Of a stretch of 64,000 bases of DNA, positions 44,601 to 63,647 are shown piece after piece. Positions within the stretch are counted from its first letter, which is position 1; every line of letters starts with the position of its first letter. The translations under genes were made by a program, and so were the position numbers. The notes beneath the pieces were generated by a model. That model was not told the origin of the DNA and made no database searches. It saw only the letters and a program-made list of their open reading frames with translations. Source of the stretch: a virus; IMG/VR virus record IMGVR_UViG_3300020185_000033, positions 11,830-75,829 of that record; one strand, 5' to 3'.

Positions 44601-45720
44601 TATTTCTTTCAAATTCTATAATAGGCCTTACTGCACGTTTGGTTTTTGGAGGTAATTGATCTCCGACATCTAAGAAATTATTCTTATGATGCCAAAAGTT
44701 AATTCTACTCCACACATTGTTATCAGTTGCTCCACGCTCCATAATAATATAGTCGGGATTTTCTTGAGTGTTGTCACTGTCAAAAGGCTCAACATCAAAA
44801 GCGCCTTCTCCGCCTACAGTATATACAAGTTGTGTGCCTAAAGGTGCAACATAACCGCCCCACAGTGCAATGCCTGTATCTGGGTCTGTTTGGTCAAATG
44901 TATAGTCCGGGGTTGGCCAATTATTTTGTCCTGCGGTTGAAACATAATTTTCAACACCTGCTAAACCACCACTGTTAAATTCTGTTGTGCCGTCTGGTAC
45001 AGTTGCAACGAGGTCGTCATCACTATCAATTATAGTTTGGTCATACGGTATATAATCTTCAGTACTGAACACAGTTGCAAAGTTTTGTTCTTTGTCGTGT
45101 AGTATAATACCTTCGCCCACGCCTTCTACAATAAATCGTTTTTCGTTCTTAAATCTATTTGGTATAACATAGTTTCCAGAAAAGGTAACAACCATTCCTG
45201 TTTTAAACTCAACTCCGCTCGGTGTTGTAAATGACTTTTTACCTACAATATCTTTTTCAATGTTTACAGGGTTTGTATCTGTACCTTCTACAATAACTGG
45301 TGTTGGACCGTTTGGGCTCCAAAAATACTCTTGGTAGTTAATGAATTTATCAATACTTATTGGTGGTAAGAACGTATACGCTTCGGTATCAAAGATACTA
45401 TTTTGATTTAGTGTATTAACACCATAACTTTTAAGTACATTAATATAGTCCTCATAGAACATGATATTTGTACTTTTACCCGTTGTTTGGTCAATTGAGC
45501 TTACTGCTGGTTCTAAACTAAATTTATCTCTGTCAGCAGTTGGTTGCAAAATATATGTATCTCTTGCATCTAATAAGTCTTCTTCGCGCCTGCCCACATA
45601 AGCAGACATTGACTCAACGTTTGCTTTACTAAAAAGTTGCTCTACTGTAGTATCGAAAAAATTCTTTATTACAGGAGTCTGGTGAATTACCGGAAGTTTT
45701 GTATATTTTTTATCAGCCAT
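26692..45720 (-). CDS. Giant (6342 aa) virion/baseplate structural protein with a YHYH-like domain and Ig-like inserts
   Basis: Uninterrupted 19-kb ORF directly downstream of the gp6-like wedge gene. It contains DKFINYQEYFW, ERPHTHPWEMLGF, HSPIVGWAFDGFPIYGPYG, DLYDPFKG, KPYSSKIR and PEELV, and is T/S/G/N/D-rich. Confidence 0.8.
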   Translation of the reverse strand: MADKKYTKLPVIHQTPVIKNFFDTTVEQLFSKANVESMSAYVGRREEDLLDARDTYILQPTADRDKFSLEPAVSSIDQTTGKSTNIMFYEDYINVLKSYGVNTLNQNSIFDTEAYTFLPPISIDKFINYQEYFWSPNGPTPVIVEGTDTNPVNIEKDIVGKKSFTTPSGVEFKTGMVVTFSGNYVIPNRFKNEKRFIVEGVGEGIILHDKEQNFATVFSTEDYIPYDQTIIDSDDDLVATVPDGTTEFNSGGLAGVENYVSTAGQNNWPTPDYTFDQTDPDTGIALWGGYVAPLGTQLVYTVGGEGAFDVEPFDSDNTQENPDYIIMERGATDNNVWSRINFWHHKNNFLDVGDQLPPKTKRAVRPIIEFERNIELYNFGTTGKFAVDISTEGYLQSEVVGRPTGASIDSVTLQPGNTILLASDSASISQYAYVINDDGSGNVALSRLADESSPAGLLDGDVGFIPYVAQKGDVITIKFGARYQGIEYHWSGTDWVAGQQKTKINTPIEFVMYDSNKVRLDDDAVYPNSTFTGNNIFGYTPAKVNTTEDTVLGFPLEYKNFNNFSEISFTNHIDDYFESYVPFGGTTKSQIKGYIYYKRNNNDVTYDTAWRPLEDKLQQRVEDRYVISDSDFETSRRLYHISAVPTNSDSDIAGLVEKSIRVYVNGIRTELFSYDSEQIAIKFSSFTFSKFDIIDIFTETKTGYFINANTDGRYHVPGSWHSNLDNADILSISQPEYLEHFKNLLELQEDAKGDSLGANNSADIKTELKYADKILQTDDDLRLSAFLFSNDKFNIKDSMDFVAEEYVKYKNRLKKEIVNFVNGNDYSAMSYGDMLELVIENVIAYNQGKNVFDDTFMIAFGDKYIEEKIVINNVLTKEYTCSHYLDLLKIDNTVYVYESDGVTPDKLLCADIDYAVSSSNGVVTITFTTNYTPTLGNTIKVRLYDANRESAQVPSTPSALGMYPITYPEIITDTSFVSPIKMVVGHDGSKSVALDDVHDFILLEFEKRIYNATLQQFRNSDSLPDLNVTDIRPGRFRTTGRNRDEFYALLRSNFNNYITRNNVDFVKNEFYREDDVWTWNYNAGTPKPAYWRGIFESCYDTERPHTHPWEMLGFTRKPTWWETTYGTDYSSTNVNLWADLEQGIIRQGNRENVTNNRYRENNPYRRIGLAYELPVNASGELIAPANIISTTATTKSTSWTSTTSGTSGADADTILNVDGLSVWEVGTVMNITTHNVMNHPVGNFPTSDNANTIEDKSYSYTIESFVGRVDPSSLGTSYANATSTSNTAIGLATNGALITNANSGIAHSDSTNFTYNSMYRNEVSRDTAGGAPDNNGIYGYIQPSPQAVGLDSWNTTAHSPIVGWAFDGFPIYGPYGYSDRANASSSIKRIESSYSLKTTTRSTIGGLPTGEFVEDYEYSSSTGDLDAYNGRHGITPEFPAGTYYYVATVDADSNPAYPYTTGPSFASTPRTVSTNNNGTATTQDQSLATFTVLSTLDTTYSVNTELTNKNWKFGDNAPVENAWRISEGYPFAVMQALLLAQPGKFASVFSDPRKPFRGLANSKQLLDRDTKRRIKTKLVDIHGEINASEQTVYTVGFTQFIHAFMKFQGLNTTAEFVKPYRSIISKLGHKFAGYIDKDTMTVFSDSYSSTGNSSSLILPQEDIEVNVHVGPYSTTNDFTGVLITYTTDGKYKIDGYNSVKRFFEIEESNTSGPATEVTVGGEPVEFANYSNSTNYQIGSIVKSGYNFYRAKEFAPAGSVVTDTAIWQRLPSLPMTGAAEATLYLTGTGTIKKVEYGTVLDTVNEVFDFLNSLGRKQEAMGFDFGEFNGDINDVNNWLYSGRQFLFWSIGKWAAGNTLSLSPLASGVKFTAPIGRVSKIIDVDQSQYSILDQEGRSIKTSECEIIRDTNKITINPPEGKQIYGVILYTNEIEHAMVLSNKTIFGDTIFDNVLSQRQRRIKIKGKRTANWNGTLTADGYIITDNGLKPNFDTLAGDMGKYNEIGHVPVEKQLYEASRRQYGYEERKYLREFELTQDDQYDFYSGMIRSKGTKNSIEVLLNSDKVLVPGSVAIYDEWALKAGDFGDIENYQTIDLKIAESEITNERQLIQVAYPEDIVSKVNEVEVLDRTTKFYQRPFLEIEPPPADIPGSFEYGGGTTAKATVNIGTDGRISDVTVDEPGYGYTINPSVTVVAAQLFTANITTSFLKPYAVSTSNITVADLTSAGNILITDHFSSNVNTVIDLSSVTTVEDVANAINNTAEISANISATFTRTAGTGTEEFFLTIKGNDFTLAEQGAGSTLESTLNLPAKRYQPRQRYSFETANSTTFSDIIVSVDGATTTGNIVGTPPGSHDWEFDEGSRTTIVTNALLSGNISQSFTFTPVSVSDGITTTDEIAADNLQIINGSYPHVDVEINGIKLPETSEEALYTITSNVSSGESTITFLDCGAIPGSPIQPNSTIEIIERGTIDLEDSYQGDLPGSSLNIKVFANDALAAKLTQIRTFEIYPDSKDDATILIDVDDPLRLTVRPTDMAEKGLWPMTSSVSYVGMVDSKYAPLPNSGYVSKYNVQYQAFDIYDFENLFDITKITRTNKLPKVNDTVHFAKGEHEEFEVYKLTDTGATISYVEYDNTVGTSFLWADVKLSDIILDNNDNANTSTEYDHTKWFDQVLALKGDNVISDAYKDLVSFDGNPIYVTEQAEVDHPVTRFVSEEKVAEQSVEMGNIEYTIPAVNSILEIRPQLSGNIISAEPVALQHAYQFARATVPTTTDITIFRSVDAVPDMRIVNNQLTFTINNGATDGVAIGHYLKFNDNSGSNLNGNIFQVANLTGAGDVQLYANTTVLGGMTNTVPKANISFINFGKNKTGNTSIDYDVQMYSPGHDFRTGTEIVFDVDNLGGSAGEVFTVNATTNDTFTVGSRLYGTNSSLDVITDSANVSLAKTTLKITAVPNSISTMGHSYEEISDALVNGITVRFKDASGTELAGNSFAPKNIRGERVLNKDLITDSVGKLGNVSVPLQGTVENSVVSGTIVDVTTPELIEPGMYLFHESIAEPVEVMSVNFDFDNEGSEPARFIESANATNNTLTLSSTSNIRVGDFITLTGVIDAEEDTVTVASISGRDITLSQGITSVTTVGITPEGEPYNILWDETQFDYYDITLADGRVINNNDTLKFRHKGDGQVANVTVKNTVTLSSNDTIEFAKAIREIVPGTPAETVDLVVFDIELDTYTGGNLDETNLSFTINEATKITTDADLSTLENLGYVKINKMSPELIIQKIRKLDTTTNSFVILDTMLAPIEDEFTVARDVTANTTISVVGTTNRLVIGMNVSGTGVPANTKVESVSDNETDITLTNAVTLSAGATIQTTMTLYEEATFMSANTVITTREDHSFATDGSDKLIGKEITVNAFEPDYYNNTFTVVDIPTANTIVVDYPGFAHPYQIGGETYSSRFEYLMHGEDANKLTGKAGFIPFLIADHLGDIKMNGADVVKGAYPWHSVEQYANDIRDTMYSKAGTVVKKGSFGINMNFINIKDAVAAYQAAGGRPDARPGAKAAPLSVGTTKKSTAPAMTTAKVTFGPQQPPGYVAPEPATAGNPQNTFNDLMNTIQTTTKNSQPKEKPTLTPQEIANQALVAGLKNLVDNVLPHQQTMVSPQAQTYLQNNQQGYSLGGGQLTDDNITYGDGGSSWGTEQSVYNHVTGAWESVEVGTSWERDGVTYTMMSDGTIEADDGTIWVTSSTRTEKGTMGALGDQFSDYGKKYGVGGSLTVSPNNPALTGKIALFNDVQLGATVTEEMPGLTIKHANVDCADLIPHTHAYELQSKSCFIDANGYNGAGTEIQIWKCKNATDPKHGKCSKETETRYVDGIASCYKPYAESFTALWNKDVANEGTSATFTVTADNVVAGETIEVDATGSVDLIGVTDISGGITSPFTMTFSVDGNGKGTATKTVQFVADSNTEGQETLKFKLRGTTNKGSITGGPADTVAVGDTSLDPVPTYTNIQADKSKVSENGERIEFTVSGKNLQSGATLTATMTGVQRADFDSGGDLSDSMTITFDMVPTNGNNWIGTASVVTKEDVLTEGSETLILTPAGADSNGASEGLSDIGTASVVIDDTSVSPVPDFEEVDYYLYHSNGPTTEITSFHLAADTSINKTLNIFFNMYGAADRMDVYQGTTKGNTQRHVASTSSNPNCTTLTTAERNRFDEIKTNLSGGDGYLTGYADMGGITAGGGRKNVGKCFFNYRPGNGRWITVKTTRGIGGTGSSVFLWAADRFLIDRGQNPWYFEQSNGSQGTGAQTGGASNQGGAGVGNENGQGGGSNSGGNTNQRRNSQRNNQGCTSVQYNTVSGNKTGSTTHQVNQVGHQVHVNPVAVAQYNGLTNPYIGAYINLVGNGPGLGTKPNIRGGAQTTTVKRFDNQESFYKGSITASATNFNNSGSQPTGPLSGRPSFAAADGSFVPSTKSPIPDNSAFNPHSNPQKPKPRVMTISLLKKNKTGMYGPLIVGASQGALSIPMDEYCMGKKVKFCADNKWINPGANGPAGIASSHSIYSVRAGDSFWINNTQITLTGVTSTESMRAAIQQSSIGGAVDVTEIDDGYGGRCVEVRMRDNTPDPIILRNGCKGGELKEVLDYTVNNKKNYAYGETTTLAGTRTSTTNVSTDISADTDSDANTAAVKVGSVSTTASGTDYITNTITAQQRLARKKPSTITQGFNGSGYERDDILRAVGGIAVSQQSNPAFSGGEGLGIYGISFAQGGFGYGKINPATGEYENDGSTRVIVGGPGQSGYGFEFDERDIKIDPTTGALIGVNWTDGVTNYQGLPAIPTGNNDGTGLFGQNYVYNNPPTVTIVGKGRRAKGIVIFNADAPSNQEEVAVFKVTDVDDDGAILELKILNRGLYQTFPGDLNSGVPLEYHVSKLNNDGQASAGGGLAFSPAGVGSVPPVQRSQGKGGRVFLTGRLIGDCTQKGTAIQDMGLTEGVQKGKNYEQSLVDYINDHSTKDPNGFPYFSASLETGGGLPGIIITTEEGDGFDIKGSEPGMLKEMNIDEGAYIPEIPPIIDVVSGGPAWSGNRDKTGGPNGDGLDINGNAIASGTGPDANKSIRFKSTNPFGISSSIGDLVASGELYKYELRRLDGSSPINITATDVSAMHVNAYALQSQRIGNDLHANGAIKVDVSNLSNVWIDDYQNTGKWAYLENNTVIRQQEKLVDTKFIRDVFTYDEASAEKEFDVDLYDPFKGILPGFIGKEIDFKTERDPVVYDPRKVKYGKKDVGLRWWDTSTLRYTWYEQGLGTYGSLGYNNYERSQNWGEMFPGSRVVIYEWVESLTAPTTSRDYITEVHPDINGKPQTFYYFWQTGLTVVSDAARVNFQKERSVAEITRLLQNLDAERVPYTGIISPDGLVVNTMGSLIKTDDSILSVNFKRKDTENAQKHSSWSLAGEGDRDGTIPDNLSVKLIDSLAGFNALDQAVPGSGLSVSERYGSKFRPRQTMFKDIKKARKQMFVILNDIFKQIQMESTFLNWRDNLPTAYSYIERVNWYEHLRTDKTNNAVIYYDNTYKPLRKVTDTKQFDLLQNVLDKSIIQVQKNDSTRYTLYEYTKKTDTFKLIAMENETIRWVKSVYSSGQSLTLGKEVRQILDVLYKHVFVDTYAVHWNKFFFEMLKYAYAEQGELDWAFKTTYLKIVKEETDLIPFKGFKIDNFDKAVEYFNEVKPYSSKIRNYSDIKKAPVEIMSGSTSDFDRPPFYDEDTKSVRILDSNNADDLVVLNTDKDYTGFSSTPSKIRSLDQTIVFDRVKGALYENSTGGAVQTIIADGTASVFNLNFAVEDSDRLQIFVNGKKVDKTSTSAGATITNYAVDVGNSFISFSNDANVNNAIGLPNNGDKIEVKYIDGFDPTLETMNVSIAKNIVAVETASNTSISNTSLQWTAPERLWKFNPAVRTEVTNAFDLAYGVGAGSNTAITTNISLVTDMVNSGNLTTALNLVKSKVHATFQGQELDGNIFTDVVPGTHPTTHYTDTRGFDTFGWDDGLFDREVEVNNFIGIFDEDTQGNVNYRVDDQTVYGFDSVTFLKSQYGPDRPEELVVVQPLETLVMDVTTQGNVQISQDSTDVRFMVFMDIFGHTEYYRRNVTPLTTVATELEVWDNEIIFADVSKLPRATKQDRAVIWINGERIEYEQVNTLTNSISGIIRGTKGTTPNTIIQVGAHVYNGEETENIRLRDANGKLIRDPEDFNWIKPVEIFDDTIPFDDDWDGNGSLTVTSANVNYANVTYDGDAGNITYGFDSSWLEDNSNVTFANANVAGAFKPTSNEVENFTLPSFDIDEVNGWDSGDKEQKEAGSLTDKGTVLKSNVSIIDFLHNFE

Positions 45721-45725
45721 GTTTA

Positions 45726-48700
45726 TTAATATCCACTTGAGTCGCTTGAGTTATTGCCTGAACTACTTGCACTAGTACCTGAAATCTGATTATTGATTAC
45801 ATTGTCCTGCGTGGTAGTTGCTGTATTCGTACCTTCTTCTGCTACATAGTTGCCCATGTACGTTGTTATGCCGTTAGGCATAAAAAATGTCTTTCCAAAG
45901 AAATCATGTGTATGAGATGTTCCGTTACCCACAAAGTCTGATGCTTCTTTAGTTGGGTACAACGGATAGTAACCGTTGATTGCGAATGGGCCAATTTCAC
46001 TTTCTGGATTTTCATATGCAGTAAATGTTGGAGTACCACTTGCAGGTTTAATATTGTCTTTAGTAATTTTGTCAACTATGTCAATGTCGTCGACAGATGC
46101 TGTACTTAAAAATAACTCGTCACTGTCGCTTTTCACTTGAAATAAATCTCCAAATACGCCTGATGTTTTCTTGGGCACAATAACAATACTACCAATTGAG
46201 TTACCTACTTGTTGATGTATGTAACTACTCAATTCTGTGAAGTAGAATGTATCGCCAAATTCCCAATTATCTATACTGAAATATTTAGTAATAGCAGTAG
46301 CAATATTGGTTTTAATCTCGTTGTCACTTAACGAGGTACCAGGTAATCTTACTACCTTGAATCTTGCTTGTAACTCTGCTAACGCATCGTTACCGAATAA
46401 TAACTTAAATCTGCCACTTTTGAATAAAATTTGATCACTAGCCGCTTTGTAAGTTTGTAAATTTTGGAACTCTGTTTCAAGTTCTAATGTGGATGGCTCT
46501 TCGGGCCATGCTGTTCCTGGAACATTAACATACGAAAGTACTTGGTCATAGTAGTTGTCTGTTAGCACGAAAAATTCGTGTACATTACTAATACTAGGAT
46601 CTATTCGCATATCGTTATTTGCTATGTGGTTCCATTTAAATACTACACTCTCTTGTGTAGAATTATTTGTATCTTGAGTAAAACTTTTACCAATCTTAGC
46701 TCTGTGTTTTGAGCTTTCGTAGTTGTTGACTACATCGAGATTCGTACTGCTGTAAGATAACAAGTAAATTTTGCCTGTATCTTTTGCATAAACTTTTTTG
46801 TTATGTAATTTACCTTGTGTATTATTAAATGTATCCACAATGGCCTTTGTCTTAACTAAAATAATATCATAGTCTGCTAGGCTATAATATGTGCCTGTTA
46901 AATTCAATGCACTACCAGTAGAATTACCTGCAATTTTATCTCTTGTTGCACTAAAGTTTACACCTGGTTCTCTGCGTAAGTCCAATATACCTGTCTTAAC
47001 AGGCTTCGTATATGTGTAACCGTCGAAACTATCAAAGTCTTCAAAAATAACAATATCGCTTGGCCCAACAAACTCTTCGAATTGAATAGGGTTATCAGGA
47101 CTATCATCGTTAGTGGAATTAAAAGGAGTTACTTGTACTTTTCTTGCATCGGTATGTCCATCTGGATATATAAAGTTTTTAACAGCACTCCACACAATAG
47201 GGGATTCCAGTCTATCTTTTGATCTCACATAGTCTACGTTAATAAGATCTTTACTTGACAAACCAGAACTGTCAATTGCATAGTGCCTTGTAGTATTAAA
47301 ATTAGTTATTGTTAATGTTCCTGACTGTGTAGAAACATTTGCGTTAGAAACATAAATGTGTCCGCCACCGGCATTTGATTCTATATTGGACTCAAATAAT
47401 GCAGAGTCACGTTTATACGCAATGTTACCACTAGCATTTAATATTGGAAATCCAAATGTTGTACTATTAAAGTCTATGTCTAACTTGCTCGGCAGTGAGT
47501 GTACAACACCTGTGTTGTTTGCAATAGTAACATTGATGTTACTTGTTAAATCTGATGTATCGAAGTTAGAGCCTAACGGTATAGTTAGGTTGTGTACAAA
47601 AGTATTACCGCTAGAATCACCATTTTTGAATATACCAAAGTTCGAGTTCAATGTAAACTCAACCTGACTGTAATTTACGCTTCTGGATTTTAATGGAATA
47701 TCATTAAAGTTAACACCGTCTTTAGTTGAATACCATTTATCGCCAATATAGTCTGGTGTAGGCGATGTAGTATCTCTCCATTCAAAGCCTTCTTGTGTTT
47801 GACCTTGGCTGTTAAGAGTGGTTAGTTCTAATGTGTCGTATTTTGCTCTACCTGTAAAACTGTCTACAATTCTGTTTTGATTTATGTTGTAGAATCTGCA
47901 ATCTTCGTAACTTTCGAATATGTATTTAGTACCTCTTAGTTCCACATTATATCTAAACGACAATGTGTCAATTGGCTCATATGAAAACTTCATAATCCAA
48001 CTTCTATCTCTGTTGTTGCCTGAAGTGTCTTCTGCGTTACCTATGTCAAATGTTCTGTTCAAATCAATGTCGTTGTTATTGATAACATAAAACGTATCAC
48101 TTGTAGCATTGTACCCAATGCCAAATGATTGTTTTTGGCCAATTGCTGTAGCAATTCTTGTTGCTTCAACTTCGTAGAACTTACTTCTCAATGTAGTAAT
48201 AATTTCCTTTCCAGTCCAACCGTCTCTTACATTTTCGCTTAATGCGAATGGACCGTTTGCTGTAGTACTAGAGCTAACACGTCTGCCGTTATCTCTAACA
48301 GAAACAATTTTAACCCATTTATATTTCGTAATATCGTCAGGGTCTACAAATTTTATCATGTGCCCTGGTTGTATAAGCGCCAAGGCTACTTTGGAAATAT
48401 TTACATCACTTATTGTACCACTGGTCGTAAATGTTTCTGTCATGTACCCTGTATCGTTTTCAGTTGTCTTAGGCAAAGTCTTCCATACTATACCGTACTG
48501 ATCTAACTTAAATTTATTTGGTTGTGTTTCGATCCACTTATTTCTGAAATCACTGTAAATAAAATCTCTTAATTCCAAATTCTTCAAATAAGTTGTGAAC
48601 ACTTTTTCAATTTGTTCGGATGCTGTATTGTTGCCATCAATGATAAATGAATAGCTCTGTGGAGAATCTTCTTTGTATAATGCTCCATCTTCAGCAATAG

Positions 48701-50135
48701 TTGTTGTTGTCTGGAATGTGCTAGTAGGATCAGTAATATCGATATACCTACTATGTCCAGCATGTGTTTTATTAGTAACTTTTAGTTTTCTAATGTTATT
48801 ACTTTTTGCTAAAGGTAACACTTGATAATCTTGTGCTGACACCATTCTGTCTTGGGCATAGTATGCCTGTGGTGCTCTTTCTTTTATGCCTGCTAATGTT
48901 TCTGAAGGTAATGCATTATTAATACTAGTTTGTAGTCTAGCAGTAATAGTTAACACATATTTTTGACCAGCAGGTGTCTCATAAGTAATATCAGTTGAAA
49001 CGTTGCCAATATCATCTGGCTGTATGCTATACCTTTCGTCGGCACTTGCTCTATAAAATGCTCTATAGTTTCCTACTGGAACATTAGCAAAGTTACCATC
49101 AGCAAACTGTAATTTAATACCGCCTGTGCCTAAGTTTTGGACAGCATATAAGTTAGGCGAGTTTTTTGCTAAAGTATTGTACTGAAGTGTTTGCCCAACT
49201 GTGTTAGGAATCTTTTTCCACTTGGACAAAACACCACCGATTGTACTTACTTGTTGAAAAAATACATCATTTTCATTAATACCGTCAACCGCAATTGTTT
49301 GCGATCTGTTTTCTTCTGGTGTTTCAAAATTGTAACTCTCTGTTTGCAATACTCCTTGTTTGAACATCAAGAAGAATCCGTTATTTGCACTAGAAAGTCC
49401 CATCCCGTCATTTCGATGGATTATACCAAAGTTGTCTGCAGGGTCAGGATGCTTTTCGAAGAAAAAGTTATTATCTTCGAAATCTGCATTTACAATTTCA
49501 AAATCCCTACTTACACCGTTTATACTCTTTTTAAACTTGTAAACAAATGGCGCATTTATTTGAGTGTTAATTTCATATAAGTCGGTAATAATATCGTTAA
49601 TAGAACCAGTTTTAACTGGCTTACTGAATCTATTTACATTGCCAAAGGCATTGTTCATTATTGTAATGAACTGCTCGTAACTGTCAGGATTGTTAGCATC
49701 ATTCCAAGTAACAGCTCTGTTACCTATTTGTGTGCCTGCACTATCCGTTAATGGCTGTGTGGTGCTAACACTTACAACTTTTAGTAAGCCACTTGCGGAA
49801 ATATTTCTTTTAGGATTATATCCTAACTGTCTTGCAAGTTTGTAAACAGAATCTTTTCTCTCTGCTGTTTCTAAAAAGTTCTCTCTTGTATTAACATCCA
49901 TTCTAAATGCAATACTTTGAGCCAAGTATGCAAGTAATTCTATAATAGCAATAAACTCTGAACTTTCGATATAATCGTTGAAGTTTTCAGGGAAATTAGT
50001 TCTGATATATTCTATCATTGCGGTGCGAATAGTTTCAAAATCGTATGCTTGGAAGTTTACATTACTATATGCCTTGTAGGCTATGTCCCAATCTTCCGCC
50101 GCAAATAAGTTGTTTTGTCTGTTGCTAGTTGCCAT
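45726..50135 (-). CDS. Baseplate wedge subunit (T4 gp6-like, extended)
   Basis: YDFETIR...ENFNDYIESSEFIAIIELLAY...ENFLETAERKDSV..LA..LGYNP, FADGNF, ETLAGIKERAP...QDRMVSAQDY and WEFGDTFY. Confidence 0.85.
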   Translation of the reverse strand: MATSNRQNNLFAAEDWDIAYKAYSNVNFQAYDFETIRTAMIEYIRTNFPENFNDYIESSEFIAIIELLAYLAQSIAFRMDVNTRENFLETAERKDSVYKLARQLGYNPKRNISASGLLKVVSVSTTQPLTDSAGTQIGNRAVTWNDANNPDSYEQFITIMNNAFGNVNRFSKPVKTGSINDIITDLYEINTQINAPFVYKFKKSINGVSRDFEIVNADFEDNNFFFEKHPDPADNFGIIHRNDGMGLSSANNGFFLMFKQGVLQTESYNFETPEENRSQTIAVDGINENDVFFQQVSTIGGVLSKWKKIPNTVGQTLQYNTLAKNSPNLYAVQNLGTGGIKLQFADGNFANVPVGNYRAFYRASADERYSIQPDDIGNVSTDITYETPAGQKYVLTITARLQTSINNALPSETLAGIKERAPQAYYAQDRMVSAQDYQVLPLAKSNNIRKLKVTNKTHAGHSRYIDITDPTSTFQTTTTIAEDGALYKEDSPQSYSFIIDGNNTASEQIEKVFTTYLKNLELRDFIYSDFRNKWIETQPNKFKLDQYGIVWKTLPKTTENDTGYMTETFTTSGTISDVNISKVALALIQPGHMIKFVDPDDITKYKWVKIVSVRDNGRRVSSSTTANGPFALSENVRDGWTGKEIITTLRSKFYEVEATRIATAIGQKQSFGIGYNATSDTFYVINNNDIDLNRTFDIGNAEDTSGNNRDRSWIMKFSYEPIDTLSFRYNVELRGTKYIFESYEDCRFYNINQNRIVDSFTGRAKYDTLELTTLNSQGQTQEGFEWRDTTSPTPDYIGDKWYSTKDGVNFNDIPLKSRSVNYSQVEFTLNSNFGIFKNGDSSGNTFVHNLTIPLGSNFDTSDLTSNINVTIANNTGVVHSLPSKLDIDFNSTTFGFPILNASGNIAYKRDSALFESNIESNAGGGHIYVSNANVSTQSGTLTITNFNTTRHYAIDSSGLSSKDLINVDYVRSKDRLESPIVWSAVKNFIYPDGHTDARKVQVTPFNSTNDDSPDNPIQFEEFVGPSDIVIFEDFDSFDGYTYTKPVKTGILDLRREPGVNFSATRDKIAGNSTGSALNLTGTYYSLADYDIILVKTKAIVDTFNNTQGKLHNKKVYAKDTGKIYLLSYSSTNLDVVNNYESSKHRAKIGKSFTQDTNNSTQESVVFKWNHIANNDMRIDPSISNVHEFFVLTDNYYDQVLSYVNVPGTAWPEEPSTLELETEFQNLQTYKAASDQILFKSGRFKLLFGNDALAELQARFKVVRLPGTSLSDNEIKTNIATAITKYFSIDNWEFGDTFYFTELSSYIHQQVGNSIGSIVIVPKKTSGVFGDLFQVKSDSDELFLSTASVDDIDIVDKITKDNIKPASGTPTFTAYENPESEIGPFAINGYYPLYPTKEASDFVGNGTSHTHDFFGKTFFMPNGITTYMGNYVAEEGTNTATTTQDNVINNQISGTSASSSGNNSSDSSGY

Positions 50136-58931: not shown

Positions 58932-59951
58932 ATGGCAAACCTTTTTGAAAGGGCCGCATGTTTTACAGATATACATTACGGCTTAAAACAAAACAGTAGA
59001 CAGCATCTTAAAGACTGTCACAACTATGTAGATTGGTTTATAGAAGAAGCAAAAGCACGAGACTGTGAGACTTGTATCTTCTTAGGTGATTGGCATCATC
59101 ACAGAGCAAGTATTAATATTGCTACTATGAATGCTACAATTAAAGATCTTAAAAAGTTAAACGACAACTTTAGTAAAGTTTATTTTATTACTGGTAATCA
59201 CGATTTATACTACAGAGAAAAACGTGACCTTAACAGTGTAGAGTTTGCTAGAGACTTAGAAAACTTTGTAATGGTAGATGAACACTTCTGTGAAGACGGT
59301 GTTGCTATCATTCCATGGTTAGTTGGCGACGAGCACAAAACACTTAACAAGTTAGATTGTAAGTATATGTTTGGTCATTTTGAGTTACCGTACTTTAAAA
59401 TGAATGCAATGGTAGAAATGCCAGACCATGGCGGTGTAAAAGCATCTGACTTGTCTAATCCAGAATATGTGTTTAGTGGTCACTTCCATAAACGTCAATA
59501 CAAAGGTAACATACATTATATAGGTAATGCATTTCCACACAACTATGCTGATGCACAAGACAACGAGCGTGGTGCTATGTTCTTAGAATGGGACAAAGAA
59601 CCTGTGTATGTCAATTGGGATCAGTGTCCTAAGTATGTAACTATGGGACTTAGAGAACTACTCGAAGCACCAGATAAATTTTTAGATGATACAACACATG
59701 CTAGGATTAAACTAGATGTTGCTATCAGTTACGAAGAAGCAAACTTCTTAAGAGAAACATTTGCTGAAAAATATAATGTTAGAGAACTTCAACTTATTGT
59801 TGTAAAAGAAGAAGATGAGGTTTTTGACGGAGAAGAAATTAACTTTGAGAGTGTTGACCAAATTGTAATTAGTCAATTAGAAACAATTGAGAGTCAACTG
59901 GTAGACACGAATAGATTAATTGAGATTTACAGGGATATAGAAATTGCTTAA
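58932..59951 (+). CDS. Recombination endonuclease subunit (T4 gp47 / Mre11 / SbcD-like)
   Basis: Metallophosphoesterase motifs DIH, LGDWHH, GNHD, GHFE and SGHFH. Confidence 0.93.
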   Translation: MANLFERAACFTDIHYGLKQNSRQHLKDCHNYVDWFIEEAKARDCETCIFLGDWHHHRASINIATMNATIKDLKKLNDNFSKVYFITGNHDLYYREKRDLNSVEFARDLENFVMVDEHFCEDGVAIIPWLVGDEHKTLNKLDCKYMFGHFELPYFKMNAMVEMPDHGGVKASDLSNPEYVFSGHFHKRQYKGNIHYIGNAFPHNYADAQDNERGAMFLEWDKEPVYVNWDQCPKYVTMGLRELLEAPDKFLDDTTHARIKLDVAISYEEANFLRETFAEKYNVRELQLIVVKEEDEVFDGEEINFESVDQIVISQLETIESQLVDTNRLIEIYRDIEIA

Positions 59952-61716
59952 AATTAAAAATGTAACAGCAAAGAACTTTATGAGTGTAGGCAACAACTTA
60001 CAAGCAGTAACGTTTGACACCGATTCGTTAACATTGGTATTAGGTCATAACTTAGACCTCGGTGGCGATGGTAGTAGAAACGGTACAGGTAAGACTACAA
60101 TTATTAATGCACTCAGTTATGCACTTTATGGCGAAGCATTAACAAACATCAGAAAGGATAATCTTATTAACAAAACAAATGGTAAAGGAATGATTACCAC
60201 TGTTGATTTTGAGATTAAAGGAACAGAGTATCGCATTGAGCGTGGCAGGCGACCTAACGTACTAAAGTTTTATATCGACGGCAATGAATCAGCTGACAAT
60301 GAACAACAAGGTGACATGCGTGAGACACAAAAAGATATCGAACGTGTGATTGGATTCCCACATAATATGTTTAAGCATTTAATTGCATTAAACACTTACA
60401 CCGAACCGTTCCTCAGTATGAAAACAAATGACCAACGAGACATGATTGAGCAGTTGTTGGGTATTACTGAAATTAGTGCCAAGGCAGATGTGCTAAAAGA
60501 GTTGTTAAAACAAACCAAAGACAATATCAAAGAAGAAGAATTGCGTATACAAGCAGTTACCAATGCTAATAAACGTGTAGAGTCTAGCATTAAGGATATC
60601 GAAAGCCGGAGCAAAGCATGGGCTAGGAATAAAGGAGACAAAGTAAACGGACTGCAAACTAGTTTGGACACATTAGAGCATACTAATATTAAAGAAGAAC
60701 TGGACAGTCATAGAAAAATTATAGATATAAACGAAAAGCAAAATAAACTTACTGCACTTAAAACAGACTTGTCGACTCGAACAACGTCGATGAATCGTAG
60801 TGACAGTAAACTTGTTACGTTGGAGGCTAACTTAGAAAGTGCAAAGTCCGGTGTATGTCCTACATGCGAACAAGGTACGGCACATTTAGACACACATGAA
60901 AAATACACAGCGGACTTAGAAGAAGAAATTAAAGAAGAACAACGGTACAACGTTGAGTTAGTGGACAAGATTAGAGATATTACTAGCGGTATTAAACAGC
61001 TGGGCAATATTCCAGAAACACCAATTACTTTTTACAACAACATGGAAGATGCTTTACAGCATAAACATAATGTAGATACATTGCAAGAACAAATCGAAGA
61101 AAAGATTAAAGAAGAAAACCCGTATGTCGAACAAGTTGACCAACTACGCCAGACAGGCATCGAAGAGGTTAGTTACGAACTTATCAATGACTACACTAGC
61201 CTAAAAGAGCATCAAGAGTTTTTACACAAACTGTTAACAAGCAAAGACAGTTTTATTAGAAAGAAAATTATTGACCAAAACTTACAGTACTTGAATTACA
61301 GACTAGGGCATTACTTAGAAAAGTTAGGCTTACCACATGATGTTAAATTTAACAGTGATTTATCTGTTGACATCACGGAGTATGGCAGAGACTTGGATTT
61401 TGATAATTTAAGCCGAGGAGAGCGTAATAGACTTATACTTGGTATGAGTTGGGCATTTAGAGACATATATGAAAGTCTCAACCAACCAATGAATTTGATG
61501 TGCATAGACGAACTGGTAGACAGTGGCATGGATACCACTGGTGTTGAAAATGCATTGGCAGTTCTTAAGAAGATGGGAAGAGAATCAAATAAAAATGTGT
61601 TCTTAATTTCACACAAAGAGGAACTACAAGGGCGTGTTAATAACGTTCTTTATGTTGTTAAAGAAGGAGGATTCACTAGTTACAGTAATGACATAGAAAT
61701 CCTCGATGAGACTTAA
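59944..61716 (+). CDS. Recombination ATPase subunit (T4 gp46 / Rad50 / SbcC-like)
   Basis: Walker A NGTGKTT, coiled coils with a CPTC zinc hook, signature LSRGE, Walker B/D-loop CIDELVDSGMD and H-loop ISH. Confidence 0.95.
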   Translation: MLKIKNVTAKNFMSVGNNLQAVTFDTDSLTLVLGHNLDLGGDGSRNGTGKTTIINALSYALYGEALTNIRKDNLINKTNGKGMITTVDFEIKGTEYRIERGRRPNVLKFYIDGNESADNEQQGDMRETQKDIERVIGFPHNMFKHLIALNTYTEPFLSMKTNDQRDMIEQLLGITEISAKADVLKELLKQTKDNIKEEELRIQAVTNANKRVESSIKDIESRSKAWARNKGDKVNGLQTSLDTLEHTNIKEELDSHRKIIDINEKQNKLTALKTDLSTRTTSMNRSDSKLVTLEANLESAKSGVCPTCEQGTAHLDTHEKYTADLEEEIKEEQRYNVELVDKIRDITSGIKQLGNIPETPITFYNNMEDALQHKHNVDTLQEQIEEKIKEENPYVEQVDQLRQTGIEEVSYELINDYTSLKEHQEFLHKLLTSKDSFIRKKIIDQNLQYLNYRLGHYLEKLGLPHDVKFNSDLSVDITEYGRDLDFDNLSRGERNRLILGMSWAFRDIYESLNQPMNLMCIDELVDSGMDTTGVENALAVLKKMGRESNKNVFLISHKEELQGRVNNVLYVVKEGGFTSYSNDIEILDET

Positions 61717-62141
61717 TGAGTGCATGGACATATAAAGGTAAATTAGTAGACACACTTCCGGATGATTGTGAAGCATTTGTGTACTTGATTACAAACACAA
61801 CAAACGATAAGAAATACATTGGTAAAAAACTTGCAAAGTTTAAAACAACCAAGCCGCCCTTAAAGGGAAGAAAGAATAAACGCCGAGGATTTAAAGAAAG
61901 CGACTGGCGTACTTATTGGGGTAGCTCGGATCACTTAAACGAGGACGTAATTACTTTAGGCGAACACAAGTTTACTAGAGAAATACTACACTATTGCCCA
62001 ACTAGAGGTATTGCAAGTTACATTGAAGCACAAGAACAATTTGAACGAAATGTTCTCTTGACAGACGAATATTATAATGGTATAATAAACGTTAGAGTAG
62101 GCGGTTCACAAATCCTTAAGGAACATTTTAAAAAGATATAA
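61716..62141 (+). CDS. Small stand-alone GIY-YIG family endonuclease
   Basis: AFVYLITN...KKYIGKK, ESDWRTYWGSS, FTREIL, SYIEAQEQ (Glu) and YYN (Asn). There is no separate DNA-binding tail. It is coupled TAATG to gp46. Confidence 0.82.
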   Translation: MSAWTYKGKLVDTLPDDCEAFVYLITNTTNDKKYIGKKLAKFKTTKPPLKGRKNKRRGFKESDWRTYWGSSDHLNEDVITLGEHKFTREILHYCPTRGIASYIEAQEQFERNVLLTDEYYNGIINVRVGGSQILKEHFKKI

Positions 62142-62162
62142 CTATATATCGAACATGGCACA

Positions 62163-62209
62163 CATAGACACCCAGTCACGCTAATAAAAACATCACAGAC
62201 ACCAAGTCA
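62163..62209 (+). repeat. Two 16-nt direct repeats, 31-nt period
   Basis: catagacacccagtca (62163-62178) and cacagacaccaagtca (62194-62209) are 14/16 identical. Confidence 0.75.
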
Positions 62210-62222
62210 ACTACATAGGTTC

Positions 62223-62530
62223 TACACCACCCCGGCGAGGCTAAAATTCGCTGTCCTTGACAAACCGGTAATCCCGGTGCGAGATACTGGACTGTAGACG
62301 GCAAGATACAAACACGATACAGTATTAAAATGATTCAGGCAATGAGAAAAAGCAACCTGAAAGTTAATATAGTTGAACTCGACAAGACTATATTAATTTC
62401 CGTGAGGTCGAAAGACAGTGACGGTAGTGTATGGGGAGAAAAGGCTCACCGCTTCCTAGTAGCACCCGAGTTTGAGATGGCGATGCTCATCTTGATGACA
62501 TTTTTTTTATTCACCCGGAGACGGGTGAAT
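62223..62530 (+). ncRNA. Putative large structured non-coding RNA of unrecognised class
   Basis: About nine consecutive stems, many with plus-strand G-U pairs, GAAA and GAGA tetraloops, and a 7-bp loop-to-downstream pseudoknot (gaactcg 62375-62381 with cgagttt 62467-62473). The region is richer in G+C than other intergenic gaps. Confidence 0.65.
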
Positions 62531-62572
62531 TATGGCTTAACTTTCTTGATAACTTCTTAACTTACTAAAAAA

Positions 62573-62636
62573 TTACTACAAGAACTGATATGAATGAAAT
62601 GAATGAAGTTAGCAGTAGTAAAGATACGAAGTATCT
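62573..62636 (+). other. Twin hairpins with GAA triloops and tandem G-A pairs (ssDNA-type structure)
   Basis: ttactac...aact-GA-(t)at-GA-at-GAA-at-GA-at-GA-agtt...gtagtaa is followed immediately by agatac-GAA-gtatct. Confidence 0.6.
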
Positions 62637-63153
62637 ATAAAGTGTTTAAGAATGCAACAGTATCTGTGTAAGACAAACGTAAATTAACTGTGTAAAGATA
62701 AAAGTCTTTCTCCAAACTATGTTTGGATGCTCCATGGAACTTGGTAACGTCTAATATACACACCTCACCTGGATTTAACATTTTGTTGTGTTCGCTGTCT
62801 TTGTGGATTATTTCTAATGGAGAATCTTCTAGGTTAAACATAATATTGGTTTTTCTAGTTAACGGATTGTTCCATCCCATTAACCAGTCCTGATGCAACT
62901 TTACCATTGATCCTTGCTTTACTGTTTCTATTGCCACACTGTGTTCCGCGATGTCTAAAGGCAATGGTGTAGCATTTATAATTTGTTGTTGTAGGCTTTG
63001 GGGCATGTCGCGGAGTAAAAATATGTGTTGATCCATATCCACACGATCCTCGACCACGTTGTACGCACTTGCTTCTTTGAACTCTGTGATAGGTTTTACG
63101 AGCTGGCGCATTGCAACAACATCATAATCCCATTTTAAAACTGTGCTAAACAT
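62635..63153 (-). CDS. Cupin/2OG-Fe(II) oxygenase-like protein
   Basis: VKLHQD (HxD), TNIMFNL and PGEVCILDVTKFHGA (distal His). Confidence 0.65.
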   Translation of the reverse strand: MFSTVLKWDYDVVAMRQLVKPITEFKEASAYNVVEDRVDMDQHIFLLRDMPQSLQQQIINATPLPLDIAEHSVAIETVKQGSMVKLHQDWLMGWNNPLTRKTNIMFNLEDSPLEIIHKDSEHNKMLNPGEVCILDVTKFHGASKHSLEKDFYLYTVNLRLSYTDTVAFLNTL

Positions 63154-63575
63154 TCGCTATAGTGTTTCCTATTATTAATTGTTACAAACTCCGCAATAGT
63201 GCTACTTTGACGGTTGTCACAGCCATGTTCTTTAGTAGTATCAAGCACAAAGAAATCACCTGGCTGTATGGTATAGTCCTCTGTTACATCATTATTAGTG
63301 TGCTGTATAATAGCAGGATGGTCACCCACATTAACTAGTATGTTACTGCGTCTTCCGCCAATATCGGTGTGTAATGCTAGATAATCACCGGGTCTAACAA
63401 ACTCCAACCCTATGAAATGTTCGGGCTCTATATTGTATTTTTTAATGAAATCTGTGGGCATTCTGTCCCATAATTGGCTCGCAGAGTACAGTTTTTGGTG
63501 TATCTTCTTTAGTTGTACCACACTGCTTAACTGCTTATCTTGACGTAAAAACGCCACAAAATCATCTATATCCAT
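63135..63575 (-). CDS. Cupin/2OG-Fe(II) oxygenase-like protein
   Basis: LALHTD, SNILVNV and PGDFFVLDTTKEHGC. Paralog of the adjacent gene. The start at ATG 63575 lies 5 nt after GTTAAATA. Confidence 0.65.
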   Translation of the reverse strand: MDIDDFVAFLRQDKQLSSVVQLKKIHQKLYSASQLWDRMPTDFIKKYNIEPEHFIGLEFVRPGDYLALHTDIGGRRSNILVNVGDHPAIIQHTNNDVTEDYTIQPGDFFVLDTTKEHGCDNRQSSTIAEFVTINNRKHYSECLAQF

Positions 63576-63619
63576 ACTTGTATTTAACAAAAAAGATGCC
63601 AATATTTGTGGTAAAAAGG

Positions 63620-63647
63620 TTGACTTTGCCACAAAAACCAGTATAAT
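63620..63647 (+). promoter_or_regulatory. Sigma70-type (early) promoter inside an inverted repeat
   Basis: TTGACT-N16-TATAAT. Arms tttgtggtaaa (63605-63615) and tttgccacaaa (63625-63635) enclose the -35 box. Confidence 0.75.

What the first reader, a model, noticed from the sequence alone, without database searches (positions are those of the whole stretch)
62223..62530. About 310-nt multi-stem pseudoknotted RNA-like element
Stems traced by hand on the plus strand: cggcgag/ttcgctg (62233-39/62247-53); accgg/ccggt (62264-68/62274-78); gatactg/cagtatt (62283-89/62320-26) enclosing tgta/taca; ttcagg/cctgaa (62334-39/62356-61) around a purine-rich loop; a 14-bp stem aagttaatatagtt/gactatattaattt (62361-74/62386-99) whose loop gaactcg pairs with cgagttt at 62467-73 (pseudoknot); ccgt/acgg enclosing gtc-GAAA-gac (62400-62424); ggggag/cttcct (62433-57); gagatg/catctt (62474-93); and attcacccg-GAGA-cgggtgaat (62509-30). 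A possible long-range pairing is tacaccacc (62223-31) with ggtagtgta (62423-31). The non-Watson-Crick positions in these stems are mostly G-U on the plus strand, which indicates the functional strand. I did not find RNase P, tmRNA, group I or group II core motifs. The complexity is of the kind seen in ribozymes or RNP scaffolds (inference).
Basis: partly seen in the sequence, partly recalled or inferred. Interest (0 to 1): 0.85.

Follow-up and report, generated by a model that had tools for sequence, protein, structure and literature searches.

The report
Twin-box knotted RNA of ocean phages

Summary
Window 62150-62640 (+) encodes a large structured non-coding RNA. On 55 homologues, 89 hand-placed pairs in 16 helices are 93% paired. 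59 pairs show compensatory changes, which no shuffle or slid control reaches. Three are wrong: gatactg/cagtatt, ccgt/acgg and the long-range tacaccacc/ggtagtgta. The pseudoknot exists in another register (62379-82 x 62472-75). A second pseudoknot was missed (62402-06 x 62445-49). The 76-aa ORF is not coding: 95 of 96 homologues have an in-frame stop.

The RNA always lies behind a 141-aa SegE-type GIY-YIG gene beside gp46/gp47, in either orientation. It keeps its own promoter-like box, and it appears alone in two ocean metatranscriptomes.

Two 10-nt boxes (62490-99, 62544-53) changed at least 24 times, yet they are identical in 96 of 97 sequences. No complementary partner turned up in the RNA, its flanks or a 316-kb relative.

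No Rfam family matches the window. Distant relatives behind GIY homologues start with Rfam Polynucleobacter-1 (RF01718) and share the knot, hairpin and twin-box plan. The window's RNA is therefore a divergent full-length relative of that orphan motif.

Function is unknown. This scan has found the same family before on other DNA.

The parts
61716..62141 (+). 141-aa catalytic-domain-only GIY-YIG nuclease gene (SegE type). It is the constant upstream neighbour of the RNA.
   Evidence: Pfam PF19835 E=3.4e-34. It lies upstream and co-oriented in every locus with enough room: 163 directly adjacent and 15 with 0.6-1.5 kb inserted.
62058..62086 (+). Perfect sigma-70 consensus promoter (TTGACA-17-TATAAT, with TG) inside the 3' end of the GIY gene.
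   Evidence: It is kept in only 12 of 90 distinct homologues, the window's own clade.
62137..62144 (+). TATAACTA box, 7 of 8 matches to the T4 late-promoter TATAAATA, overlapping the GIY stop codon. Candidate promoter of the RNA.
   Evidence: A 7/8 match sits 50-70 nt upstream of ACATAGG in 42 of 85 homologues. GATAACTA is kept at the same distance in loci where other genes separate GIY and RNA. The motif is depleted in the window, 7 against 19.5 expected.
62150..62213 (+). Leader with a variable number of CA-rich 9-10-nt repeats (ACAYRGRCAC / CAGACACCAAGTCA).
   Evidence: Alignment A1 and leaders. RNA-Seq contigs of two studies start at 62157 and 62159.
62220..62299 (+). 5' three-way-junction domain. 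Pc is 62221-26/62293-98, Pa 62234-38/62248-52, Pb 62253-56/62289-92, and hairpin S2 62265-68/62274-77 with a GA/AGA internal loop.
   Evidence: Helices 1-4 all have compensatory changes. Pc variants are TTCTACA/TGTAGA, CCATACA/TGTATGG, CTATACA/TGTATAG and CTCCACA/TGTGGA.
62305..62326 (+). Hairpin Pd (GATAC/GTATT).
   Evidence: Helix 5: 100% paired, 2 pairs with double changes.
62334..62361 (+). Hairpin Pe with the near-invariant loop GAGAAAAAGCAA.
   Evidence: Helices 6-7: 4 of 6 pairs with double changes. The loop is invariant in A1 and is also present in the distant relative L265.
62361..62399 (+). Long hairpin Pf. Its loop (62378-82) forms pseudoknot PK1 with 62472-76.
   Evidence: Helix 8 has 11 of 13 pairs with double changes. 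Helix 9 (PK1) has 4 of 4 pairs with double changes and is 95.9% paired.
62402..62468 (+). Core knot. PK2 is GTGAG 62402-06 x CTCAC 62445-49. It also holds the optional GAAA hairpin 62407-18, helix Px 62422-30/62462-68 and hairpin Pg 62433-38/62452-57.
   Evidence: Helices 10-12 are each 100% paired with 3 pairs showing double changes. The same PK2/Pg plan occurs in L257, L265, L274, L275 and L277.
62476..62491 (+). Hairpin Ph (GATG/CATC).
   Evidence: Helix 13: 78.5% paired, no double change. This is the weakest helix.
62490..62499 (+). Twin box 1, TCTTGATGAC. General form X1-X4 GAT G X9X10.
62509..62530 (+). Hairpin Pi between the two boxes, followed by the conserved TATGRCT.
   Evidence: Helix 14 has 4 pairs with double changes. 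A like hairpin sits between the twin words of all distant relatives.
62544..62553 (+). Twin box 2, TCTTGATAAC. It matches box 1 except that position 8 is always A.
   Evidence: There are 13 variants. The two boxes are identical in 96 of 97 distinct sequences, with at least 24 changes on the tree. The twin column has the top mutual information for every variable position.
62572..62636 (+). 3' domain. The stem is TTACTAC/GTAGTAA (62572-78/62614-20) around a G-A-rich inner hairpin. The terminal hairpin 62623-26/62632-35 has a GAA loop and abuts the stop codon of the convergent ORF (62635-37).
   Evidence: Helices 15-16 have 6 of 7 and 4 of 4 pairs with double changes. No RNA-Seq contig covered this part.

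Best explanation
This is a gene in its own right for a large, doubly pseudoknotted, non-coding RNA of uncultured marine T4-like jumbo phages. It is a divergent full-length member of a wider 'twin-box' RNA superfamily, whose 5' third in other clades is the orphan Rfam motif Polynucleobacter-1.

Shown here:
- the fold
- the strand
- the lack of coding
- the fixed place behind a GIY-YIG gene next to gp46/gp47
- the identity constraint on two 10-nt boxes

Inferred:
- It is transcribed from its own late-type promoter-like box at about 62137-44, as a discrete and fairly abundant RNA.
- It acts in trans as a folded scaffold. The scaffold presents the two identical, apparently unpaired boxes, one on each side of hairpin Pi.
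- An outside reader recognises both boxes by their sequence. The likeliest reader is a nucleic acid bound by base pairing, at two like sites or at one site twice.
- The GIY-YIG nuclease is a conserved neighbour and possible co-worker, not a demonstrated partner.
For: Structure: one search gives 93.1% of cells paired and 59 of 89 pairs with double changes. That is 0 of 500 shuffles; slid controls reach 11-21 pairs. One search agrees.

Non-coding: 95 of 96 homologues carry an in-frame stop and there is no 3-periodicity. The ORF is frame-broken in tblastn.

Abundance: the RNA is in 186 IMG/VR loci.

Independent gene:
- In 15 loci unrelated genes lie between GIY and the RNA, some on the opposite strand. 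They include 2OG-Fe(II) oxygenases and an IMPDH-like gene.
- In those loci the RNA keeps its own GATAACTA box and leader.

Expression:
- RNA-Seq contigs of four studies cover 62157-62497.
- Two of those runs hold nothing else of 61000-63600 at high identity.
- Contigs of two studies start within 2 nt of each other, at 62157 and 62159.

Twin boxes. The boxes are not in any supported helix, and no internal column covaries with them as a complement.

Superfamily link:
- RF01718 scores 79.3 and 74.9 bits directly behind GIY homologues in L277 and L275.
- Both loci go on with the same PK2/Pg knot, Pi-like hairpin and twin words with G then A.
- The iterated nhmmer link to L275 has E = 4.7e-5 before L275 enters the model.
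Against: - No reader was found. There is no complement of the boxes within 2.5 kb or in the 75.8-kb record. None stands out in relatives of 110, 91 and 66 kb or in a 91%-complete 316-kb relative, beyond chance level.
- The fixed G (box 1) versus A (box 2) is not explained by one common U-containing partner.
- Ends and expression rest on assembled contigs, which cannot show true ends or strand.
- The late-promoter reading rests on a 7/8 motif that overlaps a stop codon in most loci.
- A strict GIY linkage (178 of 178 loci with room) is odd for a fully independent gene.
Confidence: 0.5

Rival explanations
1. The RNA is the working partner of the adjacent GIY-YIG nuclease. It serves as a guide or docking scaffold that supplies the sequence recognition that this catalytic-domain-only enzyme lacks, with the twin boxes as the specificity element.
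For: GIY lies upstream and co-oriented in all 178 loci with room, and the pair inverts as one unit beside gp46. The protein is only the 123-residue SegE catalytic domain plus a Lys/Arg-rich insert, with no DNA-binding domain. Distant RNA relatives also sit behind GIY homologues.
Against: Close GIY homologues do without the RNA. These include Melnitz at 75% identity, followed by a 148-nt gap, and S-SRM01, B23 and phiM12 with gaps of 29-112 nt. In all, 434 cultured phage records hold the protein and none holds the RNA. 35 loci of the P0124 branch lack the RNA. Unrelated genes on the other strand separate the two in 15 loci. Box positions show no special association with GIY residues, ranking 219 and 90 of 251 RNA columns. 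No target was found.
Confidence: 0.15
2. The GIY-YIG gene is a free-standing homing endonuclease parked beside a highly conserved RNA gene that holds its target. The T4 seg genes sit next to the genes they cut in the same way. The linkage is then selfish, not functional, and box turnover reflects escape from cleavage by rival alleles.
For: The protein belongs to the SegE family. Structured RNA genes are typical homing targets (established knowledge of T4 Seg and Mob enzymes). The boxes change fast, at least 24 times. The cassette occurs in two orientations at one site.
Against: The nuclease is present in every RNA-bearing locus rather than sporadically, and it diverges in step with gp46. Escape from cleavage does not explain why two boxes must stay identical. 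No RNA gene without the nuclease was seen in this clade.
Confidence: 0.15
3. The RNA is a ribozyme or a processed RNA whose two boxes are matching cleavage, ligation or polymerase-jump sites. The roughly 54-nt Pi segment is cut out, skipped or released.
For: Identical words flank a hairpin. The box length, 10 nt, equals an RNA-DNA hybrid in RNA polymerase. The RNA-Seq contigs seen end at or before 62497, inside box 1, and none covers 62500-62640. The box spacing varies (46-60 nt) while the identity is kept.
Against: No joint across 62490-62553 was reported. Contig ends are not molecule ends. No known self-cleaving or self-splicing family matches. All 97 DNA copies keep both boxes and Pi.
Confidence: 0.1
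4. It is a cis-acting 3' UTR or terminator region of the GIY mRNA or of the convergent genes, or it encodes the 76-aa ORF.
For: It lies between convergent genes, and Pi and the last hairpin look like terminator stems. An ORF of 76 aa exists.
Against: About 450 nt with two pseudoknots is far beyond a terminator, and no U-run follows either hairpin. It is separated from GIY in 15 loci. The ORF is broken in 95 of 96 homologues.
Confidence: 0.03

Closest known systems
Polynucleobacter-1 RNA motif (Rfam RF01718; Weinberg et al. 2010, PMC2864571)
   Same: In distant relatives (L275, L277) the RF01718 model matches at 75-79 bits at the same place as the window's 5' domain. That place is directly behind a GIY-YIG homologue and ahead of the same knot, Pi hairpin and twin-word plan. 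A sequence-profile link joins the window's family to L275. The first hairpin loops look alike: GGC..AAUAUC in both.
   Different: The RF01718 model does not match the window or 13 close relatives, even at E <= 10. The Rfam motif is 141 nt and covers at most the first third. The window's 5' domain has a different helix plan (three-way junction Pc/Pa/Pb). The last RF01718 helix with its two inner hairpins is reduced here to the plain hairpin Pd. The paper lists the motif as an orphan from Burkholderiales and fresh water, with no function.
GOLLD, ROOL and other large 'ornate' RNAs of phages and bacteria (Rfam; cryo-EM in 10.1101/2024.12.08.627333)
   Same: They are large (over 400 nt), intricately folded, phage-associated and of unknown function, and they were known first from covariation alone.
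   Different: There is no sequence or structure match. Nothing here shows self-assembly. Twin identical boxes are not described for them (my knowledge, not tested).
Free-standing GIY-YIG homing endonuclease cassettes of T4-like phages (Seg proteins, Pfam PF19835)
   Same: The neighbour gene is a SegE-type catalytic domain. It sits beside a conserved gene, as seg genes do.
   Different: The nuclease has no DNA-binding domain. It is universal rather than sporadic in this clade, and no cleavage site is known.
Paired identical recognition sites read by one phage-specific factor (lambda nutL/nutR boxB; coronavirus TRS-L/TRS-B)
   Same: Two copies of one short word differ between relatives but are identical within a genome, because one reader must recognise both. 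This is an analogy from established knowledge.
   Different: Both copies here lie 54 nt apart within one RNA. No N-like protein, and no nascent-strand jump, is shown.

Membership tests
Rfam RF01718 Polynucleobacter-1 | Match to the Rfam covariance model at or above its gathering score (37 bits) | tested here: not met
   There is no hit at gathering score, nor at E <= 10, on the window, on its 5' domain alone or on 13 close relatives. The same search gives 79.3 and 74.9 bits on L277 and L275, so the test works.
Rfam RF01718 Polynucleobacter-1 | Homology by context and shared downstream architecture with RF01718-positive RNAs | tested here: met
   L275 and L277 carry RF01718 directly behind a GIY homologue. 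A PK2/Pg-type knot, a Pi-like hairpin and twin words ending G then A follow. The nhmmer profile of the window's family reaches L275 at E = 4.7e-5.
Twin-box RNA family (this scan's working name, unpublished) | Two copies of one short word that vary between phages but stay identical within each RNA, on either side of a hairpin | tested here: met
   The boxes are 62490-99 and 62544-53. They are identical in 96 of 97 sequences, with 13 variants and at least 24 changes.
Twin-box RNA family (this scan's working name, unpublished) | Two pseudoknots supported by covariation | tested here: met
   PK1 has 4 of 4 pairs and PK2 has 3 of 5 pairs with double changes. They are 96-100% paired.
Group I / group II introns, RNase P RNA, tmRNA | Match to the family covariance models or ARAGORN; flanking exons for introns | tested here: not met
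   No Rfam match. ARAGORN finds no tmRNA or tRNA. gp46 and the GIY ORF are complete, and no split gene flanks the RNA.
RNA-guided nuclease systems (guide RNA plus nuclease) | A guide segment complementary to a target, and a nuclease that depends on the RNA | tested here: inconclusive
   No target complementary to the boxes was found in up to 316 kb of phage genome. The nuclease family mostly occurs without the RNA. Binding and dependence cannot be tested with these tools.
Protein-coding gene (76-aa ORF 62330-62560) | Open frame and codon-position pattern kept in homologues | tested here: not met
   An in-frame stop occurs in 95 of 96 homologues. Variability by codon position is 0.185 / 0.152 / 0.163.

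The most novel reading that the evidence does not exclude
The twin boxes are a programmable specificity element. The folded RNA holds two copies of a 10-nt address and uses them to bring a partner to a matching pair of sites. The partner may be the GIY-YIG nuclease next door. Alternatively, the boxes make a polymerase or a processing enzyme act at both copies. Either way this would be a new kind of sequence-addressed RNA machine in abundant ocean phages.
Probability: 0.15. Interest if true: 0.9.

Novelty: new variant of a known kind. Interest (0 to 1): 0.7.

Why it matters
Large RNAs with two covariation-proven pseudoknots are rare, and most of the known ones turned out to be ribozymes or cores of RNA-protein machines. 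This one is common in giant T4-like phages of the ocean: 186 loci were fetched here, and the nuclease is seen on contigs of up to 345 kb. It is transcribed in the sea, and it is absent from all 50,697 deposited phage genomes, so no laboratory system has met it.

Its twin boxes are a clear and testable oddity. Two 10-nt words changed together at least 24 times, which means that something reads both.

The work also gives the 16-year-old orphan Rfam motif Polynucleobacter-1 a context. It is the head of a roughly 450-nt phage RNA that sits beside a minimal GIY-YIG nuclease.

Tried and rejected
- **Rfam.** No family matched at gathering score or at E <= 10, on the window, on the 5' domain alone or on 13 close relatives. 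A sn668 snoRNA hit (E = 8.6) is noise.
- **tRNA/tmRNA.** ARAGORN found none.
- **Deposited phages.** blastn of the RNA against 50,697 records gave no match.
- **Bacterial genomes.** A core-pattern scan of 185,579 species genomes gave two Poribacteria MAG hits at one shared locus. They have no nhmmer match and no GIY, so they are a chance match. I therefore could not confirm earlier notes that the family occurs in bacteria, and the exact pattern would miss divergent members.
- **Sigma-70 promoter as the RNA's promoter.** It is kept only in the window's clade.
- **Box partner inside the RNA.** No complementary covarying column exists. Apparent sites near 62480 come from the palindrome CATCATGATG of one variant, and sites near 62520 are as common with control boxes.
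- **Box partner elsewhere.** Nothing stood out in the 75.8-kb record, in relatives of 110, 91 and 66 kb, or in a 316-kb relative. Two partner-sense sites 2 kb apart in the 316-kb genome lie in unrelated contexts.
- **Box to leader-repeat pairing.** Rejected by eye on three clades.
- **Box to GIY residue co-variation.** No signal.
- **Translation logic.** The box spacing is not a multiple of three in relatives.
- **RNA-Seq.** The parts 62500-63600 had no cover in the four runs laid. This proves nothing about the 3' domain.
Distant relatives were reached through the search for related loci instead.

Full report
**Context.** The window is 64 kb of a 75.8-kb IMG/VR record. CheckV rates the record about 21% complete. 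The nuclease protein discussed below is seen on contigs of up to 328-345 kb, so this is a jumbo phage. The finding lies in a 493-nt gap (62142-62634). Upstream, on the + strand, lie gp47- and gp46-like recombination nuclease genes (58932-61716). They are followed by a 141-aa ORF (61716-62141) that matches Pfam SegE_GIY-YIG at E = 3.4e-34. Downstream lie two convergent cupin/2OG-oxygenase-like ORFs.

- The 308 nt fold to -87.8 kcal/mol on the + strand, z = -3.0, and none of 100 shuffles folds as well. The - strand gives z = -2.1.
- The strong evidence is comparative. The gp46-like protein fetched 80 related viral contigs, and blastn found the gap sequence in 73 of them at 70-98% identity.
- nhmmer places the element in 186 loci. 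These give 96 distinct full-length copies besides the window's own.
- RNAalifold on 55 sequences predicts 59 pairs, 38 of them with compensatory changes.
- I then laid out a structure by hand, guided by sequence variants, and had it counted. It has 89 pairs in 16 helices, and 93.1% of cells are paired, against 81.8% in shuffles. 59 pairs carry changes on both sides, against 35.3 +/- 2.4 in shuffles, and 0 of 500 shuffles reach any of the five measures.
- Sliding the 3' partners by 1-3 columns drops pairing to 34-44% and leaves 11-21 such pairs.
- G-U pairs lie on the + strand, so that is the RNA strand.

- Confirmed: 62234-38/62248-52 (Pa), 62265-68/62274-77, 62334-39/62356-61 (Pe), the long stem 62361-74/62386-99 (Pf), 62433-38/62452-57 (Pg) and 62509-17/62522-30 (Pi).
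- GATG/CATC (62476-79/62488-91) is possible but has no compensatory change.
- Not supported: gatactg/cagtatt. CAGTATT pairs with GATAC at 62305-09. TGTA 62293-96 pairs with TACA 62223-26 in a helix (Pc) that covaries through four variants. GGAC 62289-92 pairs with GTCC 62253-56.
- Not supported: ccgt/acgg and the long-range 62223-31 x 62423-31. ACGG-TAGTG (62422-30) pairs with 62462-68. There, G-C to A-U and U-A to C-G changes occur while ACACC stays fixed.
- The loop pseudoknot is real, but it is 62379-82 x 62472-75. All four pairs have double changes.
It shows GTAAG/CTTAC, GTGGG/CCCAC, GTAGG/CCTAC and GTGAA/TTCAC variants and is 100% paired.
- The GAAA hairpin at 62407-18 is an insert of a few clades.
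- The element also extends further: a leader from about 62150, and a covarying 3' domain up to 62636 (helices 15 and 16).

**Not coding.** Read from the position aligned to the ATG of the 76-aa ORF, 95 of 96 homologues hit an in-frame stop. Variability is flat over codon positions (0.185, 0.152, 0.163). The longest + strand ORF in the region is mostly 20-40 aa. tblastn finds the ORF only as pieces in different frames.

**Neighbourhood.**
- In every locus with enough upstream sequence (178), the GIY-YIG gene lies upstream on the same strand. It is directly adjacent in 163 loci and 0.6-1.5 kb away in 15.
- The inserts in those 15 are unrelated genes, partly on the opposite strand. They include two 2OG-Fe(II) oxygenases and an IMPDH/GMP-reductase-like gene.
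- The pair always sits beside gp46, in two orientations. Among RNA-found loci, 66 are as in the window and 22 are inverted as a unit.
- The nuclease family itself is much wider than the RNA. It is in 434 deposited phage records, mostly cyanophages. Melnitz (75% identity), S-SRM01, B23 and phiM12 have only 29-148 nt after the gene.
- 35 loci of another GIY branch have neither this RNA nor any Rfam hit.
- The RNA is in none of 50,697 deposited phage records at blastn sensitivity.

**Its own gene?**
- The perfect sigma-70 promoter at 62058-86 is kept only in the window's own clade, 12 of 90.
- A TATAACTA/TATAAGTA/GATAACTA box, 7 of 8 matches to the T4 late promoter TATAAATA, lies 50-70 nt upstream of the conserved start ACATAGG.
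- That box is kept at this distance even where other genes separate GIY and RNA. The motif is depleted in the window.
- Between the box and the fold lies a leader with a variable number of CA-rich repeats.
- Four ocean RNA-Seq runs from four studies hold contigs over 62157-62497.
- In two of them (X10, X13) this is the only part of 61000-63600 covered at high identity. Their contigs start at 62159 and 62157, with no loose ends.
It fits a start a few bases after the box.
- No contig covered 62500-62640, which proves nothing.

**Twin boxes.**
- Box 1 (62490-99, TCTTGATGAC) and box 2 (62544-53, TCTTGATAAC) have the form X1-X4 GAT G/A X9X10.
- Among 97 distinct sequences there are 13 variants, and the two boxes agree at all six variable positions in 96.
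- For every variable position, the column with the highest mutual information is its twin, with identity 0.99-1.0.
- On a tree built from the rest of the RNA, the box changed at least 24 times. Recombination of the whole box-Pi-box segment could inflate that number, but it would not explain the identity.
- Position 8 is always G in box 1 and A in box 2. Position 3 is A, T or G, never C.
- No column of the RNA covaries with the boxes as a complement.
- No site with 9 of 10 complementary bases lies within 2.5 kb, apart from a palindrome effect in one variant.
- None stands out in the 75.8-kb record, in relatives of 110, 91 and 66 kb, or in a 91%-complete 316-kb relative. That genome had 5 extra hits against 3 for the control, and the two partner-sense sites lie in unrelated contexts.
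- Box positions show no special association with GIY residues.
- So something outside the RNA reads both boxes, and I could not name it.

**Relation to known families.**
- No Rfam family matches the window, its 5' domain alone or 13 close relatives, even at E <= 10.
- Earlier notes of this scan claimed that relatives begin with Rfam Polynucleobacter-1. I tested this.
- A search of protein representatives gave a GIY relative, P0121, that is 64% identical to the window's protein. Its relatives in IMG/VR include loci where nhmmer finds weak matches to the window's family right behind the gene.
- cmscan finds RF01718 at 79.3 bits (L277, 1948-2090) and 74.9 bits (L275, 1991-2132), directly behind the GIY gene.
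- Both loci continue with a PK2-type pairing (GTCGT/ACGAC, GTCAT/ATGAC) into the loop of a GAGG/CCTC hairpin. Then come a first word, a Pi-like hairpin with T(A/G)TGRCT, and the same word again. The words are GAATAAT and AGATAAT, followed by G in the first copy and A in the second.
- Intermediate relatives (L265, L257, L274, L272) share the GAGAAAAAGCAAC loop or the same plan.
- An iterated profile reaches L275 at E = 4.7e-5 before L275 enters the model.
- The window's RNA is therefore a divergent full-length member of a superfamily whose head is RF01718 in other clades. It fails the RF01718 model itself.
- Its 5' domain has a different helix plan, so I do not file it as an RF01718 member.
- Weinberg et al. 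2010 list that motif as an orphan from Burkholderiales and fresh water.
- I found no paper that describes the full-length RNA or a GIY-YIG-linked RNA.

**How it most likely works.**
- Shown: a folded, non-coding, conserved RNA with two knots and two identical boxes, beside a minimal nuclease gene.
- Inferred: it is a trans-acting RNA, made from its own late-type promoter. Its fold presents the two boxes to an outside reader that recognises their sequence, most simply by base pairing.
- The nuclease-guide reading is attractive. The enzyme has no DNA-binding domain and the linkage is strict. But relatives of the enzyme manage without the RNA, genes can be inserted between the two, no target was found, and no box-protein co-variation shows.
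- The homing-cassette reading explains the neighbourhood but not the twin identity.
- A processing or jump reading explains the identity, but it has no direct support.

**Note.** This scan has found the same family before on other DNA, in many windows. I re-tested the main claims here and cite only my own results as evidence.

Noticed in passing
window 26692-45720 (-): A single 6342-aa ORF lies among baseplate-like genes, followed by a 1469-aa ORF (45726-50135). It is one of the largest phage proteins one is likely to meet.
   Followed up: no
window 62058-62086 (+): A perfect extended sigma-70 consensus promoter sits inside the 3' end of the GIY-YIG coding sequence. It is kept only in the window's closest clade (12 of 90 homologues). 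It would give an early, host-polymerase transcript through the RNA in that clade alone.
   Followed up: partly
window 62635-63153 and 63135-63632 (-): Two tandem paralogous 165-172-aa ORFs (about 30% identical to each other by tblastn) converge on the RNA. In relatives, like ORFs match 2OG-Fe(II) oxygenase (PF13640) and sometimes lie between the GIY gene and the RNA.
   Followed up: partly
L008:7770-8561, L013:7800-8585, L041:7764-8558: In several relatives a 261-264-aa ORF with no Pfam match is inserted between gp46 and the GIY gene.
   Followed up: partly
L156:4122-5153: An IMPDH/GMP-reductase-like gene (PF00478, E = 2e-72) is inserted between the GIY gene and the RNA in one lineage. It looks like an auxiliary metabolic gene.
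   Followed up: partly
window 62150-62213 and homologous leaders: The RNA's leader holds 2-5 tandem copies of a 9-10-nt CA-rich unit (ACAAGGCAC, ACATGGCAC, CAGACACCAAGTCA). Copy number and sequence differ between clades. Their role is unknown.
   Followed up: partly
window 62486-62495 in relatives with box TCATGATGAC: In the commonest box variant, box 1 and its 5' flank form a perfect 10-nt palindrome (CATCATGATG). That could let two RNA molecules pair. Other variants, including the window's, lack it.
   Followed up: partly
L196:3053-3131, L197:4126-4204: Two Candidatus Poribacteria MAG chromosomes match the 25-base core pattern of the RNA at one shared locus. They have no further similarity and no GIY gene, so this is a chance match.
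   Followed up: yes
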